Numbered from the stretch's first letter, positions 1 to 22,567 are shown. The stretch: DNA of 22,567 nucleotides from a virus (IMGVR_UViG_2537562194_000013), one strand, 5' to 3'. Translations and numbers: made by a program. The notes: generated by a model not told the origin, from the letters alone.

Positions 1-432
1 GATATCAACGTTATTACCAATTTTTACTCTTGAACCAGGCATGTCACCATCTATCTGTCCAATGGTAGTATTCTGTCGCAAAACCAGATTTTCACCAGCA
101 TCAACAGCAAAATGAACAACAATTCCAGTATGATGGGGAATTGTTAAACCTTTTCCAATATTTGCGCCCAATCCAATTTCGCAACCAAATCTGTTAATTA
201 TATTATTGTTTAACTTTCTGGCTGCTTTCTTATGTAATTTATTGCCATTAATATACATTTCATTAGCCAGTCTCCACCAGAAAAGGAAATTCCGATTGCG
301 CTGCTTCTTCTCTCTTAATAGTCGCCAAACATCCATTTTTTCACGCCTGATGATTTCAGCCATCCAGTAGCTCAATAGAGCTTTTGAATTCCCGAAGATG
401 ACAAAGTGAATAGCTATTAAGTAACATAACAT
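1..432 (-). CDS. Hexapeptide-repeat acetyltransferase (WcaB/CysE-like family), 5' part only; the gene runs off the left edge of the window
   Basis: Minus-strand frame is open from ATG at 432 to position 1, with an in-frame stop just upstream at 460-462. It was not in the supplied ORF track because it has no stop inside the window. Translation begins MLCYLIAIHFVIFGNSKALLSYWMAEII and ends with left-handed beta-helix hexapeptide repeats (RFGCEIGLGANIGKGLTIPHHTGIVVHFAVDAGENLVLRQNTTIGQIDGDMPGSRVKIGNNVDI) typical of serine/polysaccharide O-acetyltransferases. The region is clearly AT-rich compared with the rest of the window. Confidence 0.6.
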   Translation of the reverse strand, partial: MLCYLIAIHFVIFGNSKALLSYWMAEIIRREKMDVWRLLREKKQRNRNFLFWWRLANEMYINGNKLHKKAARKLNNNIINRFGCEIGLGANIGKGLTIPHHTGIVVHFAVDAGENLVLRQNTTIGQIDGDMPGSRVKIGNNVDI

Positions 433-902
433 ATTGCAACTGCCTATATTTTTTGGTTTCTATGGTTATATATTGACATTATAATTAAAACAATAATCAT
501 CAGTGTGTTACTGCGTTCCTGCTAAACTAAATCAACGCACAATGTAAACACAAATGTTAATTTTAAACTGAGCGCTAAAGGGATGTCAATATTGTATTGA
601 TAATGAGTTGCAAGATTGCCAACACTTTCTATATTTTTGGATGTAATAATTTATATTTTATCTATTTAGTGTTTCTTTAGACTTATTAAGGATGTCATTA
701 TTAATTTATGGCTTGCCATTTCTATACATATCTGTTAAAAATTTTGACTTGTTTGTTGAAAATAGATTTAATTGATTGGTTTATTTTTTACATGACGCTC
801 TTTAATATAGCTTCAGGTATATATAAGCACAATGCATTATTTCCAGAGGAAATTAACAAAATTGTTAGCTCTTATTTGTTGAGCTTATAGATATTAATTA
901 AG

Positions 903-921
903 GCCCGATTCCGGGCCTTTC
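903..921. terminator. GC-rich hairpin (GGCCCG-ATTC-CGGGCC) followed by TTT, at the boundary between the AT-rich island and the dar operon leader
   Basis: Perfect 6-bp inverted repeat with a 4-nt loop at 903-918. The flanking T-tract is short, so terminator strength is uncertain. Confidence 0.35.
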
Positions 922-922
922 C

Positions 923-1129
923 TCATTCCGGCTTTTCGGGAAACGTTACTGGAAGGATGGAGGTATCCGTGGATTCGACTTTCTGCGCATAGAGAATCCA
1001 CTCGGTTAATTTTTGTTTACCCTGAACGGAAATAATGCCTAGCCGTAACTGTGAGTCCCAGAGCTGAGTTTTATCCCTGACGAGCTGTAGCAGGCTTTGC
1101 TTTTCTTTTTCCGCTTGTTGTCTTTGCAT
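923..1129 (-). CDS. Possible small protein (68 aa), hypothetical
   Basis: This is the C-terminal 68 codons of the 165-aa track ORF 923..1420, starting at ATG 1129 (MQRQQAEKEKQSLLQLVRDKTQLWDSQLRLGIISVQGKQKLTEWILYAQKVESTD...). The composition is protein-like, unlike the upstream 97 codons, which are antisense to lydA. There is no convincing ribosome-binding site, so this is a weak call. Confidence 0.2.
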   Translation of the reverse strand: MQRQQAEKEKQSLLQLVRDKTQLWDSQLRLGIISVQGKQKLTEWILYAQKVESTDTSILPVTFPEKPE

Positions 1130-1161
1130 GACCGGTTGAGAAGTTACTTTGCATACCATTA

Positions 1162-1181
1162 CCTCCTGACAACGTAGGAGG
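1162..1181 (+). promoter_or_regulatory. Inverted repeat CCTCCT-N8-AGGAGG that includes the lydA Shine-Dalgarno sequence; possible translational control element
   Basis: CCTCCT at 1162-1167 is the exact complement of the AGGAGG at 1176-1181, which sits 6 nt upstream of the lydA GTG start at 1188. Confidence 0.35.
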
Positions 1182-1187
1182 GAACTT

Positions 1188-1517
1188 GTGCTTGACACAC
1201 AGGAATTAGCTCCAGTTGCTATTGCGCTCCTGCTTTCAGTAATTGGTGGGATAGGCACGTTCCTGATGGATGTCCGAGACGGTCGCCAGTCTGGCAATTT
1301 GTTGGGATTGGTTACGGAGATCTTTGTTGCAGTGACAGCTGGTGCGGTGGCGTACCTATTGGGGCAACACGAGGGCTGGGAGTTATCAATTACGTACTTA
1401 ATGGTAACGATAGCCAGCAATAACGGTCATGAGGTGATTTCAGGGATGAAACGAGTGAATATCGATAGCATTCTGAATGTTCTTACAAGTTTGGTGAAAA
1501 AGGGAGGTGGGAAATGA
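1188..1517 (+). CDS. lydA: Holin LydA (P1 dar-operon lysis determinant A)
   Basis: 109 aa, GTG start preceded by AGGAGG. Three hydrophobic helices (LAPVAIALLLSVIGGIGTFLM, LLGLVTEIFVAVTAGAVAYLL, LSITYLMVTIAS) and a charged C-terminal tail, which is holin topology. It is the first gene of an operon whose order matches the P1 lydA-lydB-hdf-darA-ddrA-ddrB arrangement. Confidence 0.7.
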   Translation: MLDTQELAPVAIALLLSVIGGIGTFLMDVRDGRQSGNLLGLVTEIFVAVTAGAVAYLLGQHEGWELSITYLMVTIASNNGHEVISGMKRVNIDSILNVLTSLVKKGGGK

Positions 1518-1957
1518 TTGGCTGGGGTGTATGCGCTCTTGCGTTAGCCTTAGCCGATCGCTATTTGCTAAAACGCAAGGACATCACGCATTTAGAACTT
1601 GGTGATGTGGAAATTAAACCGGGTTTCATCCGGGTGCCGTTCAAATACCGGTCTAAATTCCCGTTTTTGCGCGGCGCAACGGTCAGATATTGGATCCGCG
1701 ATGTTCAGAAGCCAACGACAGTGATTGAAGGCGAACAACGTTGTCTGACGTCGGCTGAACAGGGCGAAAACAGTGAATGGTTGTACATACCCACTGAATA
1801 TATGGGTAAAGGAGAACGGCTGTGGCATTTCAACGTCATGGTTACGCATGGCGACTCGTTCATTAACCCGTTGTATCGGATTTTCCCTGTTACTCAGCAA
1901 ATCCGCAGAAGTTACGTAATAAATCTCGCACAGGATGTGTCAGATGACGAAAAATAA
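1514..1957 (+). CDS. lydB: LydB (holin antagonist in the P1 dar operon)
   Basis: 147 aa. The start ATG overlaps the lydA stop (ATGA at 1514-1517) and follows GGGAGG. It has an N-terminal hydrophobic segment. Identification is by position and size relative to lydA and darA. Confidence 0.6.
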   Translation: MIGWGVCALALALADRYLLKRKDITHLELGDVEIKPGFIRVPFKYRSKFPFLRGATVRYWIRDVQKPTTVIEGEQRCLTSAEQGENSEWLYIPTEYMGKGERLWHFNVMVTHGDSFINPLYRIFPVTQQIRRSYVINLAQDVSDDEK

Positions 1958-2546
1958 GTATGCAACGGTCGATTTTGACCAGGTTAATGAAAAGGGGCTG
2001 AAATCCCTTATCGCGGCGATCAATAAAACCGGTGTTACGGTAATTGAGGTTGACTCCAGCAACCGCGCAACAACGAAAGATGGCGTTAAAGTTAAAACCG
2101 CAAAGCTGGTTCTTAACGACGGACAAATTCTTGCCATACAGGTAAACGATACTGGCGATATATCGTCTGTGAGGCTGAATGGAAAAGCTATTCCTAACGC
2201 TCAGTCGCCGGATATCAAGACGCTTGGTACCGTCATGGGGCAAGCGGCCCGCAAAAACTCCGCAAAATTCCAGAAATCACTGATCGCCAAAGCGAAACGT
2301 GTTGCCAATCCGGTAGACAAGAAACCGGCAGTAAAATCCAACTTTCAGCGCCTGCAAGAGGCAAAACAGCGGAATGCTCAGGTGGTTGCCGCTTATAAAT
2401 CAGCGCAGAACTCGGTGTCTTTCAATCAACAGCAGATCACTGATTTGCGGGCGAAGCTGGATAAGGAGACAGGCCGACTCAATAACGAAAAGGCCCGAAA
2501 TGGCGAACTCAAACGCCGTCTTAAGCAACTGAAAGCAGGAAATTAA
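1944..2546 (+). CDS. hdf: Hdf (homolog of DarA fragment), with a coiled-coil C-terminus
   Basis: The ORF is open from 1935; I prefer ATG 1944 (MTKNKY...), which has AGGA 9 nt upstream and overlaps the lydB stop. The protein shares a block with the downstream DarA ORF (KNSAKFQ motif followed by a K/Q/E-rich coiled coil), and the underlying DNA is repeated at 2254-2274 and 3151-3171. Confidence 0.7.
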   Translation: MTKNKYATVDFDQVNEKGLKSLIAAINKTGVTVIEVDSSNRATTKDGVKVKTAKLVLNDGQILAIQVNDTGDISSVRLNGKAIPNAQSPDIKTLGTVMGQAARKNSAKFQKSLIAKAKRVANPVDKKPAVKSNFQRLQEAKQRNAQVVAAYKSAQNSVSFNQQQITDLRAKLDKETGRLNNEKARNGELKRRLKQLKAGN

Positions 2547-8957: not shown

Positions 8958-9635
8958 TCACTCCACTACAAACCAGTCACATGCCAGTAAGTCGCCTACA
9001 GAAGGAACCCACGGAACAACTACACCTTGTGCATTTTTTAAGGCGAAATAAGCACCATACGGAACGAGGTCGCCGGGGAAATATCCCTTAATGGCTTCCA
9101 TTCGTGCCGGGTACTGTCCTTCAGGAACCAGCCAGCAGAATTGGTTTTCGCCGTTCCACCCGCGTCGGGCAACTTTCTTGCCATCCTTCAGCCACATCAG
9201 CGCGTCAGAAAAGTCGGCTGCTTCAAGGTCGATTTCTTCTTGTAGAGTAGCGATACCGCCAGCAGAAATAGTTACGTCCCTGGCTGTAATGAATGTCACC
9301 CCATTGTGACCTTCAATGCTGAGCGATACCCCATTTTCGAAGAAGTCGTTAGTCCGACTAAAGCCTTCTTCAAATGTTTTTTCTGGTGAATAGGACAGAG
9401 ATCCGTCCTCATAAGCGACCAGATATCCGCCAATTTCTGGTCGGTGTTTTTGCAAAAATATTTTATCAACATGGACTTTTACCCCTTCTGGCTCAACGAC
9501 TTCGATGTTGCAAAAAAGGACCACATCCATTAGGGCGATAATTTCGATATCTTTGATTTTTGAGGCGCGAACTGTTTTATGGCTTTTGTATTTTGGAAGT
9601 GCCGTCAAAAGCTCTTTCGTTGTCATGTTATTCAT
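8958..9635 (-). CDS. Two-domain protein with a C-terminal DUF2829 (Tad2-like) domain
   Basis: I prefer ATG 9635 (MNNMTTKELL...), which has an AGAGGA ribosome-binding site, over the track start at 9803. The C-terminal ~80 aa (FSDALMWLKDGKKVARRGWNGENQFCWL...VVVPWVPSVGDLLACDWFVVE) fits the DUF2829 signature as I recall it: ALK-GKK-RR-GWNG, then PW-PS--DLLA-DW. The N-terminal ~140 aa is unrecognised. Confidence 0.7.
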   Translation of the reverse strand: MNNMTTKELLTALPKYKSHKTVRASKIKDIEIIALMDVVLFCNIEVVEPEGVKVHVDKIFLQKHRPEIGGYLVAYEDGSLSYSPEKTFEEGFSRTNDFFENGVSLSIEGHNGVTFITARDVTISAGGIATLQEEIDLEAADFSDALMWLKDGKKVARRGWNGENQFCWLVPEGQYPARMEAIKGYFPGDLVPYGAYFALKNAQGVVVPWVPSVGDLLACDWFVVE

Positions 9636-9832
9636 AGTCTTTCCTCTGCTTAAAACCTGATGTATTGCGCCTTCAGGTGGGTCAGGAATGTTTTCCCACC
9701 AGCGAACGCAATATCTCGGGGTGTTCTTTTCGTGAAAAGCGCGTGCCATTGCCAACTTTGGCGTTTGTTTGCGAGTTCGTGCTTTTGTCGGCGTCTGGAC
9801 CACCGCTTTTCTTTCAGTCGTTTTTTACACAT

Positions 9833-21623: not shown

Positions 21624-21638
21624 ACTTCCCGCCATTTT

Positions 21639-21656
21639 GCCCGGCATCAACCGGGC
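21639..21656. terminator. Hairpin GCCCGG-CATCAA-CCGGGC between convergent genes
   Basis: 6-bp GC stem with a 6-nt loop, followed by ATTCTTCC on the plus strand. The T-tract is weak. Confidence 0.35.
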
Positions 21657-21665
21657 ATTCTTCCA

Positions 21666-22535
21666 TTATTCAGCCGCCACCGGTTTTAACAAGCCAGCAT
21701 CGAGCAGTTTACGCGTCAACCACTGCTGGCCTTTACCCGTTAATTGAGGCGTCAACCGTATCTGGTAGCCATCTTCATCATCCAGCACCACTTCTTTCAC
21801 CGTGAAATACCCCGCGTTGATGTACTGCTGGAACGGCACATTTTTACGTCCACCGGACGCTATCAGGATGCCGTTCTCCCGTAACCAGACAAACAGCGCG
21901 TTTTGCTTAAGTCCAACAACCTTTGCAAAATTCCCAATCAGGATCCCTTTAGCTACTGATACCCGGTCGGCAAAATCGACTTTAGGAGCGGCGGCCACCA
22001 GCTGCTGATTTAGCTGGTGGGCTTTCTGTTCCAGAAGTTGCTTTTGTTCAGCCAGTTCGGCAGCCAGGCGTAGGGCTTCAGGAAGCGTCTGGGGGATTGC
22101 GATCGGTTGCTGTTCTTTTTGTCGGAAGTAGCTGTCTTCCAGTTTTTCAAAGAATGCCCATGCCTGATCGGTTTCGAGCATTTTAGCGTGGCGGGCTGCG
22201 CCGCGTTCTGTCCAGAGGGTGAGTGAGCGAACATTGCGAGCAATTTTTACAGAGTAGTTTAAAGCTACTCTGTGCTTCAACTCGCGCAATGATTCTCCTT
22301 CAACTTTGAAAAAGTGCTTCCCTTCAACAAAGCGTACTTTGTTCTCATGATGATTTTGGCGAATACGGATTGTTTCTGTCCCATACCCTCTAGCAAGAGT
22401 CTCGGTTGTCACTACACGCACTCCCTGCCATTCCAGAACGGGAATTTCATCAGACTGATTCTGAACAACCACCAGCTCCGATTCCTGAACTGAAGGTGCA
22501 TGAATTTTTTCTAATTTAACGTTATTTGCTTTCAT
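21666..22535 (-). CDS. Phage antirepressor-like protein with N-terminal ORF6N domain and C-terminal KilAC/Ant domain
   Basis: 289 aa. ATG 22535 with AAGGAGG 8 nt upstream. N-terminal signature (WQGVRVVTTETLARGYGTETIRIRQNHHENKVRFVEGKHFFKVEGESLRELK) and a C-terminal Ant-type region (FADRVSVAKGILIGNFAKVVGLKQNALFVWLRENGILI) flank a central Gln-rich linker. Confidence 0.75.
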   Translation of the reverse strand: MKANNVKLEKIHAPSVQESELVVVQNQSDEIPVLEWQGVRVVTTETLARGYGTETIRIRQNHHENKVRFVEGKHFFKVEGESLRELKHRVALNYSVKIARNVRSLTLWTERGAARHAKMLETDQAWAFFEKLEDSYFRQKEQQPIAIPQTLPEALRLAAELAEQKQLLEQKAHQLNQQLVAAAPKVDFADRVSVAKGILIGNFAKVVGLKQNALFVWLRENGILIASGGRKNVPFQQYINAGYFTVKEVVLDDEDGYQIRLTPQLTGKGQQWLTRKLLDAGLLKPVAAE

Positions 22536-22567
22536 TCTGTGTGCCTCCTTGCGTGCTTCGGCTGCGA

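What the first reader, a model, noticed from the sequence alone, without database searches (positions are those of the whole stretch)
1..900. AT-rich island with a hexapeptide acetyltransferase gene next to the dar operon
The leftmost ~900 bp are visibly much more AT-rich than the rest of the window (a 60-bp sample at 421-480 has 16 G+C). They carry the 5' 144 codons of a WcaB/CysE-family acetyltransferase on the minus strand, followed by ~470 bp of AT-rich non-coding DNA. In P1, as I recall, lydA is flanked on this side by the cin / tail-fibre region, so this looks like foreign cargo inserted at a module boundary. Polysaccharide O-acetyltransferases on phages can modify O-antigen or capsule (seroconversion or superinfection exclusion); that role is a hypothesis here.
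Basis: partly seen in the sequence, partly recalled or inferred. Interest (0 to 1): 0.55.

Follow-up and report, generated by a model that had tools for sequence, protein, structure and literature searches.

The report
Tail-fibre-linked acetyltransferase cargo gene
The AT-rich left end of the window is a foreign accessory gene for a sugar-type acetyltransferase that travels with phage tail-fibre genes and probably alters the host cell surface; it is common, already annotated and functionally untested, so a fairly ordinary finding.

Summary
Bases 1-900 are 31% G+C against 51% in the rest of the window (z about -9). They carry the first 144 codons of a minus-strand left-handed beta-helix (LbH) acetyltransferase, then about 463 nt of non-coding AT-rich DNA.

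The gene is foreign cargo: P1 and P7 lack it, and about 14% of P1-like plasmids have it. But it did not insert beside the dar operon. In cin+ relatives such as JL22 it lies inside the invertible C segment, convergent with a replacement tail-fibre-assembly gene (tfa). Near-identical plasmids occur in both orientations. The window lineage lost 2.9 kb (the 5' part of U', Sv', cix, cin, lydC). That deletion fused a U' relic to the lydA late promoter; 49 complete E. coli genomes, mostly Shiga-toxin-producing (STEC), share the exact junction.

The tfa-acetyltransferase pair is shared at 91% DNA identity with P2-like prophages of O157/O26/O39. The same layout recurs in acetyltransferase lineages only 34-46% identical.

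The protein has the CysE fold but fails the CysE, WcaB and EpsC equivalog cut-offs and lacks the SAT N-terminal domain. dN/dS is about 0.15. More distant chromosomal relatives sit in LPS-core or glycan loci.

The best reading is a cytoplasmic glycan O-acetyltransferase that modifies the lysogen's surface. That function is inferred, not shown.

The parts
1..432 (-). 5' 144 codons of a 190-aa CysE/WcaB-like LbH acetyltransferase (start ATG 432-430). The last 46 codons lie left of the window.
   Evidence: Translation. NCBIfam EpsC/CysE/WcaB hits below cut-off. Full-length copy in p95NR1A, L004 7860-8432, identical DNA. PHROG 2154, E 1e-83. G+C 35%, GC3 30%, dN/dS 0.15-0.19.
433..895 (.). AT-rich (27% G+C) non-coding leader/promoter region of the acetyltransferase. 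Found only on P1-like plasmids.
   Evidence: Composition. In 65 of 5426 E. coli genomes, all on plasmids, none on chromosomes. Only three phage records, from two phages. The 60-aa ORF 708-890 is not conserved in frame. No Rfam family. No tandem repeats.
560..589 (-). Best sigma-70-like promoter candidate for the acetyltransferase: TTGACA (589-584), 18-nt spacer, TAAAAT (565-560). It lies about 128 nt upstream of the ATG.
   Evidence: 11 of 12 consensus match. Both hexamers are identical in the window, Ro157c2YLVW, JL22 and pLH09-a-D. This is a consensus match only, not shown to be functional.
900..919 (.). G+C-rich hairpin (AAGGCCCG-ATTC-CGGGCCTT) just after the U' stop codon, at the AT/GC boundary. 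Terminator-like for the U' transcript.
   Evidence: Sequence. RNA fold -18.5 kcal/mol with an 8-bp stem. The U-tract is poor and the shuffle z-score is only -1.6, so its function is not shown.
923..1126 (-). Relic of the 3' end of tail-fibre-assembly gene U'. DNA homology spans 896-1127. RefSeq calls a 78-aa chimeric ORF at 923-1159.
   Evidence: 86-89% identical to the Mu and SfMu U/U' genes, 93% to JL22 U. Annotated as 'tail fiber assembly protein' in p95NR1A and Ro157c2YLVW.
1127..1127 (.). Deletion junction. Relative to JL22, 2877 bp are missing (5' part of U', Sv', cix, cin, lydC).
   Evidence: BLAST block map: window 1-1126 = JL22 L002 9001-10124; window 1128-2000 = L002 13002-13874. Junction sequences show no notable microhomology. 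The exact junction is present in 49 complete E. coli genomes.
1141..1159 (+). P1 late promoter LPdar (-22 box AAGTTACTT, -10 TACCAT), retained 13 nt inside the junction.
   Evidence: P1 annotation places LPdar at 31212-31230. P1 homology begins at P1 31243 = window 1128. Sequence read.
1188..1517 (+). lydA holin, first gene of the lyd/dar operon. This is the boundary of the feature, not part of the island.
   Evidence: 99.7% identical to P1 lydA. ORF list.

Best explanation
Window 1-900 is a moron: a compositionally foreign accessory gene with its own promoter-like and terminator-like signals. It encodes a soluble CysE-fold, WcaB-like LbH acetyltransferase.

Shown:
- The gene travels as a unit with the tail-fibre-assembly gene tfa, stop codon to stop codon.
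- In P1-like phage-plasmids this unit replaced the Sv-U arm of the Cin-invertible C segment, so the acetyltransferase sits in the middle of that segment.
- In the window's lineage, a later 2.9-kb deletion removed the 5' part of U', Sv', one cix site, cin and lydC. This froze the segment and placed the acetyltransferase region about 700 nt from the late promoter of the lydA/dar operon.

Inferred:
- The enzyme is made in the lysogen from a sigma-70 promoter in the AT-rich leader.
- It uses acetyl-CoA to O-acetylate a sugar of a cell-envelope glycan while that glycan is still at the cytoplasmic face. LPS core or an O-unit is most likely; ECA or colanic acid are alternatives.
- The result is a modified surface receptor: lysogenic conversion, superinfection exclusion, or protection of progeny from re-adsorption.
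For: Anatomy (shown):
- The compositional break has z about -9.
- JL22 gene order is R-stf-tfa-> <-AcT-spacer <-U <-S <-cin, with 602-nt inverted repeats enclosing the acetyltransferase.
- Plasmids at least 99.6% identical occur with the segment in either orientation, breaking exactly at the end of the repeat: 11 versus 4, plus pLH09-a-D.
- The deletion is mapped to the base and LPdar is retained.

Linkage to tfa:
- 1149 nt covering tfa plus the acetyltransferase are 90.7% identical to an O157:H7 P2-like prophage. Homology ends at the acetyltransferase ATG.
- The same pair occurs in O26 and O39 prophages.
- The convergent layout, with a stop-to-stop gap of -37 to +43 nt, also occurs in Citrobacter phiNP, Hafnia yong2 and vB_EcoM-613R2, where the acetyltransferase is only 34-46% identical.
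- In S. thermophilus 987-group phages a homologue follows the receptor-binding genes (PMC6213268).

Functional gene: dN/dS is 0.15-0.19, and family motifs including the HH(100)xG histidine are conserved.

Fold: the AlphaFold2 model has pLDDT 95, with five N-terminal helices followed by the LbH. The top 50 PDB matches are all serine acetyltransferases, TM about 0.7.

Glycan rather than cysteine role:
- Scores are 70 vs 150 (EpsC), 60 vs 211 (CysE) and 53 vs 195 (WcaB) bits.
- No SATase_N domain was found.
- Relatives at 39-50% identity sit in LPS-core or glycan loci: Leminorella GT8-WaaY-x-AcT-WaaL; Pseudomonas MsbA-kinase-AcT-NeuB; and GT2-AcT.

Moron signals: a conserved promoter-like site and a hairpin between the tfa and acetyltransferase stop codons.
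Against: - No experiment or expression data exist. The substrate is unknown.
- The position next to tfa may only reflect a permissive site at the end of a late operon. Some homologues lie elsewhere: after hok at a prophage end, next to an integrase, and next to an Abi gene and int in ESSI2_ev040.
- Carriers have unrelated O antigens (O157, O111, O26, O39). This argues against an O-antigen-specific target and leaves the target open.
- PADLOC has no model for the protein.
- The promoter and terminators are consensus matches only.
- The best structural and sequence relatives with known function are true serine acetyltransferases.
Confidence: 0.55

Rival explanations
1. It is what the databases call it: a genuine serine O-acetyltransferase, an auxiliary metabolic gene that boosts cysteine synthesis in the lysogen or during phage growth.
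For: RefSeq and PGAP name it 'serine (O-)acetyltransferase'. The best PDB sequence and fold matches are CysE enzymes. The catalytic histidine is conserved.
Against: It scores 59.6 bits against the 210.65-bit cut-off of the cysE equivalog. There is no SATase_N domain. At 190 aa it is about 80 aa shorter than the PDB CysE chains it matches. In the HMMER alignment, the Asp of the SAT 'DH' motif is His, and the 'GGDRHPKIG' substrate loop aligns with a gap in a region that varies within the family. Homologues lie in LPS or glycan loci or next to tail-fibre genes, not with cysK or cysM.
Confidence: 0.07
2. It acetylates something other than an envelope glycan. Candidates are a small molecule or antibiotic (as Vat/CatB-type LbH enzymes do), a signalling nucleotide, or a phage or host protein, as a defence or counter-defence function.
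For: LbH enzymes have very diverse acceptors. The gene occupies accessory-gene sites next to Abi, hok and HicAB genes in some phages. It is under purifying selection.
Against: No PADLOC hit. The NCBIfam ranking favours EpsC, CysE and WcaB over xenobiotic acetyltransferases. Chromosomal relatives are embedded in LPS-core or nonulosonic-acid loci. The repeated pairing with receptor-binding modules is not explained.
Confidence: 0.2
3. It is a selectively neutral hitch-hiker of tail-fibre module exchange, silent under H-NS in the AT-rich context, with no role in this plasmid.
For: It moved together with tfa. It is very AT-rich. Some copies are annotated as frameshifted or partial (pLH09-a-D, P0003).
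Against: dN/dS is 0.15-0.19 across P1-like and P2-like copies with dS up to 0.43. The ORF is intact in 530 genomes' worth of hits that are mostly annotated as intact CDS. The pairing is conserved at 34-46% protein identity. The frameshifts in pLH09-a-D affect many neighbouring genes, so they look like assembly errors.
Confidence: 0.12
4. One reading: an independent insertion of foreign DNA at the boundary between the lyd/dar module and the cin/tail-fibre module.
For: In the window, the island does abut the lydA promoter region.
Against: A 232-nt U' relic separates them. cin+ relatives show the island in the centre of the C segment, 2.9 kb from lydA. The junction at 1127 is a deletion end-point.
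Confidence: 0.03

Closest known systems
NeuO, the polysialic-acid O-acetyltransferase of E. coli K1 prophage CUS-3 (from my own knowledge: Deszo et al. 2005; not retrieved here)
   Same: A soluble LbH acetyltransferase carried by a temperate phage as an accessory gene beside the receptor-binding (tailspike) gene. It modifies the surface polysaccharide of the lysogen.
   Different: Not a close sequence relative: no NeuO chain appears among PDB hits at E <= 0.01. NeuO is phase-variable through 5' heptanucleotide repeats, and this gene has no tandem repeats. NeuO's substrate is known; this gene's is not.
WcaB / EpsC / CysE clade of LbH acetyltransferases (NCBIfam TIGR04016, NF041874, TIGR01172)
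   Same: Same fold (helical N-domain plus LbH), a conserved catalytic His, and the best profile hits.
   Different: It fails every equivalog cut-off by a factor of 2 to 4. It has no SATase_N domain. It is not in a colanic-acid, EPS or cys locus but on phages. It forms its own family, PHROG 2154, 'unknown function'.
Seroconverting phage O-acetyltransferases such as Sf6 Oac (integral-membrane Acyl_transf_3 enzymes) and GtrABC glucosylation cassettes
   Same: The proposed biological role is the same: a prophage-encoded change of LPS that alters phage receptors and serotype (background in PMC13123978, and PMC12373910).
   Different: An unrelated protein family and topology. Those enzymes act on the periplasmic side; an LbH enzyme must act in the cytoplasm. 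No Acyl_transf_3 hit was found.
P1 C segment / Mu G segment (Cin/Gin tail-fibre inversion switch)
   Same: In cin+ relatives the gene lies between the convergent U and U' type genes within the 602-nt inverted repeats and flips with them.
   Different: The classical C and G segments carry only fibre (Sv, Sv') and chaperone (U, U') genes, with 28 bp between U and U' in P1. Here about 1 kb of non-fibre cargo is inside. In the window itself the switch has been deleted.
'sacF' of phage-plasmid JL22 (PMC9603915)
   Same: The same gene (95% protein identity) in the same position relative to tfa. The authors noted that it replaced part of the U/S region.
   Different: They interpreted it as a cysteine-pathway enzyme and stated that the reason for its presence is unknown. 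JL22 keeps cin and the full C segment.

Membership tests
LbH (hexapeptide-repeat) acyltransferase superfamily | Tandem hexapeptide repeats that form a left-handed parallel beta-helix | tested here: met
   Pfam Hexapep and Hexapep_2 hits (E 3e-5 and 3e-3, below gathering score). AlphaFold2 model with pLDDT 95 and short strands at 84-179. Foldseek probability 1.00 to LbH enzymes.
LbH (hexapeptide-repeat) acyltransferase superfamily | Conserved catalytic histidine in the loop after the first coils | tested here: met
   H100 is present in at least 90% of 24 and of 36 family members. It aligns with the His of the SAT 'DH' motif.
Serine O-acetyltransferase CysE (TIGR01172 / PRK11132) | Score above the curated equivalog cut-off | tested here: not met
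   59.6 bits vs 210.65, and 35.6 vs 397.
Serine O-acetyltransferase CysE (TIGR01172 / PRK11132) | N-terminal SATase_N helical domain and full length of about 270 aa | tested here: not met
   No SATase_N hit at E <= 0.1. The protein is 190 aa. PDB SAT chains align from their residue 114-145 onward.
Serine O-acetyltransferase CysE (TIGR01172 / PRK11132) | Serine/cysteine-binding residues (Asp of the DH motif; Arg-His of the GGDRHPKIG loop; residue roles recalled from published CysE structures) | tested here: inconclusive
   The alignment to 4n69 shows HH in place of DH and a gap at the RH loop. That loop varies within the family. The residue roles are from memory, and no bound-ligand model was made.
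Serine O-acetyltransferase CysE (TIGR01172 / PRK11132) | Enzymatic acetylation of L-serine; complementation of a cysE mutant | not testable with these tools
   Needs an experiment.
Colanic-acid acetyltransferase WcaB (TIGR04016 / PRK10191) | Score above the equivalog cut-off and a position in the wca gene cluster | tested here: not met
   52.7 vs 194.65 bits and 54 vs 196 bits. The gene is on phage-plasmids and prophages next to tfa.
P1 core genome | Present at this position in P1, P7 and most P1-like elements | tested here: not met
   Absent from P1 and P7. Present in 65 genomes against 473 plasmid hits to the lydA-proximal query.
Moron (phage accessory transcription unit, in the sense of Hendrix and colleagues) | Absent from close relatives; deviant base composition | tested here: met
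Moron (phage accessory transcription unit, in the sense of Hendrix and colleagues) | Own promoter and terminator; expressed from the prophage | tested here: inconclusive
   A conserved 11/12 promoter-like site and a hairpin between the stop codons. No expression data.
Membrane O-antigen acetylases (Oac/OafA, Acyl_transf_3) | Acyl_transf_3 domain and multiple transmembrane helices | tested here: not met
   No such Pfam hit. The model is a soluble helical plus LbH fold.
Known anti-phage defence systems (PADLOC-DB 2.0) | Match to a defence-protein model | tested here: not met
   0 families at E <= 1.
NeuO-type phase-variable phage acetyltransferase | 5' tandem heptanucleotide repeats; close sequence similarity | tested here: not met
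   No tandem repeats in 1-1200. NeuO is not among the PDB hits.

The most novel reading that the evidence does not exclude
The acetyltransferase is a receptor-editing partner of the tail fibre it travels with. In cin+ relatives its expression is switched together with host range.

- In one C-segment orientation it is convergent with, and so antisense to, the late S-tfa transcript.
- In the other orientation it lies co-directionally downstream of S'-U' and would be read through from the late promoter.

A Cin flip would then couple 'which receptor my virions use' to 'which receptor I mask on my own cell'. The window lineage would be a frozen version that keeps only the lysogen-expressed state.
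Probability: 0.15. Interest if true: 0.65.

Novelty: new member of a known kind. Interest (0 to 1): 0.3.

Why it matters
If the enzyme acetylates LPS core or another shared envelope glycan, about 10% of complete E. coli genomes carry a phage-borne surface-modifying gene that is currently mislabelled as a cysteine-pathway enzyme. That includes most sequenced O157:H7, O26 and O111 STEC. Such a gene could affect phage susceptibility, which is relevant to phage therapy and biocontrol of STEC. It could also affect serology and host interaction.

The repeated pairing with tail-fibre chaperone genes gives a testable rule: the receptor-binding module and the receptor-editing enzyme move together.

For this window, the practical result is a correct map. 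The island is a remnant of the tail-fibre switch region, not an insertion into the dar module, and the P1-like plasmid lineage common in STEC has lost its host-range switch.

Tried and rejected
- Hidden RNA or small gene in the 463-nt spacer. Rfam found only chance-level hits (18 bits vs a gathering score of 70). The 60-aa ORF is not conserved in frame. There are no tandem repeats and only trivial short repeats.
- Origin of the spacer. No similarity outside P1-like plasmids, even with blastn word size 11. Its origin remains unknown.
- Defence-system identity. No PADLOC hit.
- My provisional idea that the P2-like copy sits in P2's Z/fun or the published P2 defence hotspot. I withdrew it. The hotspot described by Rousset et al. 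is old/tin, between gpA and gpQ. In the O26, O39 and O157 prophages the gene simply lies between tfa and the oppositely oriented tail operon.
- Systematic neighbour test on one genome per species. The 15 nearest loci were not prophage tail regions. Several of them were LPS or glycan loci. This was useful for function, but it does not measure tfa linkage in close relatives.
- One look-up of encoding contigs failed. Two others showed non-tfa contexts, so the linkage is frequent but not universal.
- Literature. No paper tests this protein. Accession and PHROG searches returned nothing. Only the JL22 paper comments on it.

Full report
**1. Observation**

The left end of the window is strongly AT-rich.
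- G+C is 0.312 for 1-900. All 900-nt windows of the remaining 21 kb give mean 0.507, sd 0.022, minimum 0.451, so z is about -9.
- A minus-strand ORF starts at ATG 432-430 and runs off the window after 144 codons.
- The next 463 nt (433-895) are 27% G+C and non-coding. The only sizeable ORF (708-890) is disrupted by a 1-nt indel in three relatives. Rfam gives nothing above chance. There are no tandem repeats.
- The composition jumps to about 48% at a G+C-rich hairpin at 900-919.

**2. What lies around it**

The window is 99.6% identical over its full length to plasmid p95NR1A, and 100% identical over the first 2 kb. p95NR1A is a P1-like phage-plasmid of an Australian E. coli isolate.

Megablast against phages shows that P1 and P7 homology begins only at window 1128-1137, 60 nt or less before the lydA start at 1188.

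Bases 896-1127 are 86-89% identical to the 3' end of the Mu-type tail-fibre-assembly gene U/U'. So a relic of U' sits between the island and lydA.

Only two phage genomes match the island itself: vB_EcoM-Ro157c2YLVW, which has the same layout as the window, and JL22.

**3. Comparison with JL22 and P1**

JL22 explains the anatomy. Its gene order is R, stf, tfa on one strand, then the acetyltransferase, the AT-rich spacer, U, S and cin on the other strand, then lydC and lydA.
- 602-nt inverted repeats, 99% complementary, at L002 6568-7169 and 11430-12031 enclose the acetyltransferase. The gene therefore lies in the middle of the Cin-invertible C segment.
- In P1 the U' and U stop codons are 28 bp apart with nothing between them.
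- Relative to JL22, the window lacks 2877 bp (L002 10125-13001): the 5' part of U, the variable fibre part, one cix site, cin and lydC. The junction is at window 1127 and shows no notable microhomology.
- The P1 late promoter LPdar (P1 31212-31230 = window 1141-1159) survives 13 nt inside the junction.

The island's adjacency to the dar operon is thus the product of a deletion, not of an insertion at that boundary.

**4. The segment really inverts with this cargo inside**
- Plasmid pLH09-a-D has cin and the segment in the opposite orientation. There S'-U', the spacer and the acetyltransferase are co-directional.
- Among JL22-type plasmids at least 99.6% identical, 11 show spacer-U'-S'-cin colinear. 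Four break exactly at query base 2599, the end of the inverted repeat.

**5. Distribution**
- DNA similar to the acetyltransferase occurs in 530 of 5426 complete E. coli genomes, mostly on chromosomes.
- The gene together with the spacer occurs in 65 genomes, all on P1-like plasmids.
- Of those 65, 49 carry the exact deletion junction. They are mostly STEC O111, O26 and O157 isolates from cattle and humans, and include pO111_3 of strain 11128.
- About 470 plasmid hits to the lydA-proximal half of the same query give the denominator. Roughly one P1-like plasmid in seven has the gene.

**6. Linkage to tail-fibre genes**
- A 1149-nt block covering most of tfa, the 43-nt gap and the whole acetyltransferase is 90.7% identical to a P2-like prophage remnant of O157:H7. 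Homology stops at the acetyltransferase ATG.
- Intact P2-like prophages of O26:H11 and O39:NM have H, then tfa, then the convergent acetyltransferase, then the oppositely oriented tail operon.
- The same convergent tfa/acetyltransferase layout, with a stop-to-stop gap of -37 to +43 nt, occurs in Citrobacter phage phiNP, Hafnia phage yong2 and vB_EcoM-613R2. There the acetyltransferases are only 34-46% identical to this one.
- In S. thermophilus 987-group phages a 31%-identical homologue follows the receptor-binding genes.
- There are exceptions. One paralogue follows hok at a prophage end, one lies next to an integrase in Salmonella, and one lies next to an Abi gene and int in ESSI2_ev040.

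The linkage is frequent and old, but not universal.

**7. The protein**
- It is 190 aa at full length.
- NCBIfam ranks EpsC (70 bits, cut-off 150), CysE (60, cut-off 211) and WcaB (53-54, cut-off about 195) highest. All fall far below their cut-offs.
- Pfam finds only sub-threshold Hexapep hits and no SATase_N domain.
- PHROG 2154 ('unknown function') matches at 1e-83. PADLOC has nothing.
- An AlphaFold2 model of an 88%-identical family member (pLDDT 95) shows five N-terminal helices followed by a left-handed beta-helix. The 50 best PDB fold matches are all serine acetyltransferases, with TM about 0.7.
- In the HMMER alignment to soybean SAT, the catalytic His is kept, the preceding Asp is His, and the substrate loop 'GGDRHPKIG' aligns with a gap in a region that varies within the family.
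- The gene is under purifying selection: dN/dS is 0.15-0.19 with dS up to 0.43.
- G+C is 35% and GC3 is 30%, against about 50% for tfa, the fibre gene and the dar genes.

**8. Clues to the substrate**

A scan of one genome per species found relatives at 39-50% identity, several of them in envelope-glycan loci:
- In Leminorella grimontii the gene lies between GT8, WaaY and an unknown gene on one side and the O-antigen ligase WaaL on the other.
- In Pseudomonas abyssi it lies between an MsbA-like transporter with a kinase-like gene and NeuB.
- In another Pseudomonas it follows a GT2 glycosyltransferase.

P1-, P2- and Mu-type fibres are known to use LPS core as receptor (my knowledge, not tested here). 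The E. coli carriers have unrelated O antigens, which favours a shared target such as core over a specific O unit. This is inference.

**9. Likely mechanism**

Shown:
- It is a foreign, selectively maintained LbH acetyltransferase gene.
- It is physically linked to tfa.
- It lay inside a tail-fibre inversion segment that has since been deleted down.
- It has a conserved promoter-like site (TTGACA, 18 nt, TAAAAT at 589-560 on the minus strand).
- It has hairpins on both sides.

Inferred:
- It is expressed in the lysogen.
- It carries out acetyl-CoA-dependent O-acetylation of an envelope glycan at the cytoplasmic face.
- This changes the phage receptor or serotype.

I put about 0.55 on this overall. 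The anatomy is near certain; the function is about even odds.

Rivals:
- A true serine acetyltransferase (0.07).
- Another acceptor, such as a small molecule, a protein or a defence-related target (0.2).
- A neutral hitch-hiker (0.12).

**10. Comparison with what is known**

In function, the closest analogue is NeuO of prophage CUS-3. NeuO is also a soluble LbH enzyme beside the receptor-binding gene, but it is not a close relative and it is phase-variable.

The classical seroconverting acetylases (Oac, OafA) are unrelated membrane proteins.

The JL22 paper noticed the gene, named it 'sacF', read it as a cysteine-pathway enzyme and called its presence unexplained. No paper was found that tests it.

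**11. Verdict**

It is an AT-rich accessory gene of a common STEC phage-plasmid lineage, already annotated (probably mis-named) in hundreds of genomes.

Two modestly new points come out of this work. The gene is cargo inside an active host-range inversion segment in cin+ relatives. And it is persistently paired with tail-fibre chaperone genes across deep divergence. Interest 0.3; new member of a known kind.

Noticed in passing
window 923-1159 (-): RefSeq annotates a 78-aa 'tail fiber assembly protein' here. It is a chimeric ORF: about 66 C-terminal residues of U' fused across the deletion junction to codons that overlap the LPdar late promoter (1141-1159). Probably a relic. Whether it is made, or interferes with LPdar, is unknown.
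   Followed up: partly
window 21634-22567: This stretch (the icd/antirepressor region) matches two places in p95NR1A, which carries two icd-ant copies about 7.4 kb apart flanking c1, an integrase (cre-like) gene and ref.
   Followed up: no
window about 9333-9669: The only other place in the window where 300-nt windows drop below 40% G+C. It lies in the 262-aa / 281-aa (DUF2829) ORF region annotated in p95NR1A between ddrB and ssb; from memory, P1 has its IS1/isaA-isaB region here (not checked).
   Followed up: no
L099 2327-3229 (E. coli O39:NM P2-like prophage): A macro-domain protein gene sits between the tail-fibre gene and tfa, immediately upstream of the tfa/acetyltransferase pair.
   Followed up: no
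L090-L093 3662-4573 (E. coli chromosomes): A 55%-identical paralogue of the acetyltransferase lies just after a hok/gef-type toxin gene at the end of a prophage, next to a metal-transporting P-type ATPase gene. This arrangement is listed in 594 blocks of the assembly collection.
   Followed up: no
L004 7826-7853 (p95NR1A, about 150 nt left of the window start): The hairpin AAGCCATCGAT-agaaat-ATTGATGGCTT fills the 43-nt gap between the convergent tfa and acetyltransferase stop codons. It looks like a bidirectional terminator.
   Followed up: partly
L094 8333-8567 (Salmonella enterica island): A second Hexapep-domain gene lies 4 kb from the acetyltransferase homologue, in an island with a phage integrase and a MazE/PIN pair.
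   Followed up: no
L097 (pLH09-a-D) whole locus: Many genes in this record, including the acetyltransferase, are annotated as frameshifted. This looks like assembly error rather than decay, so its pseudogene calls should not be trusted.
   Followed up: no
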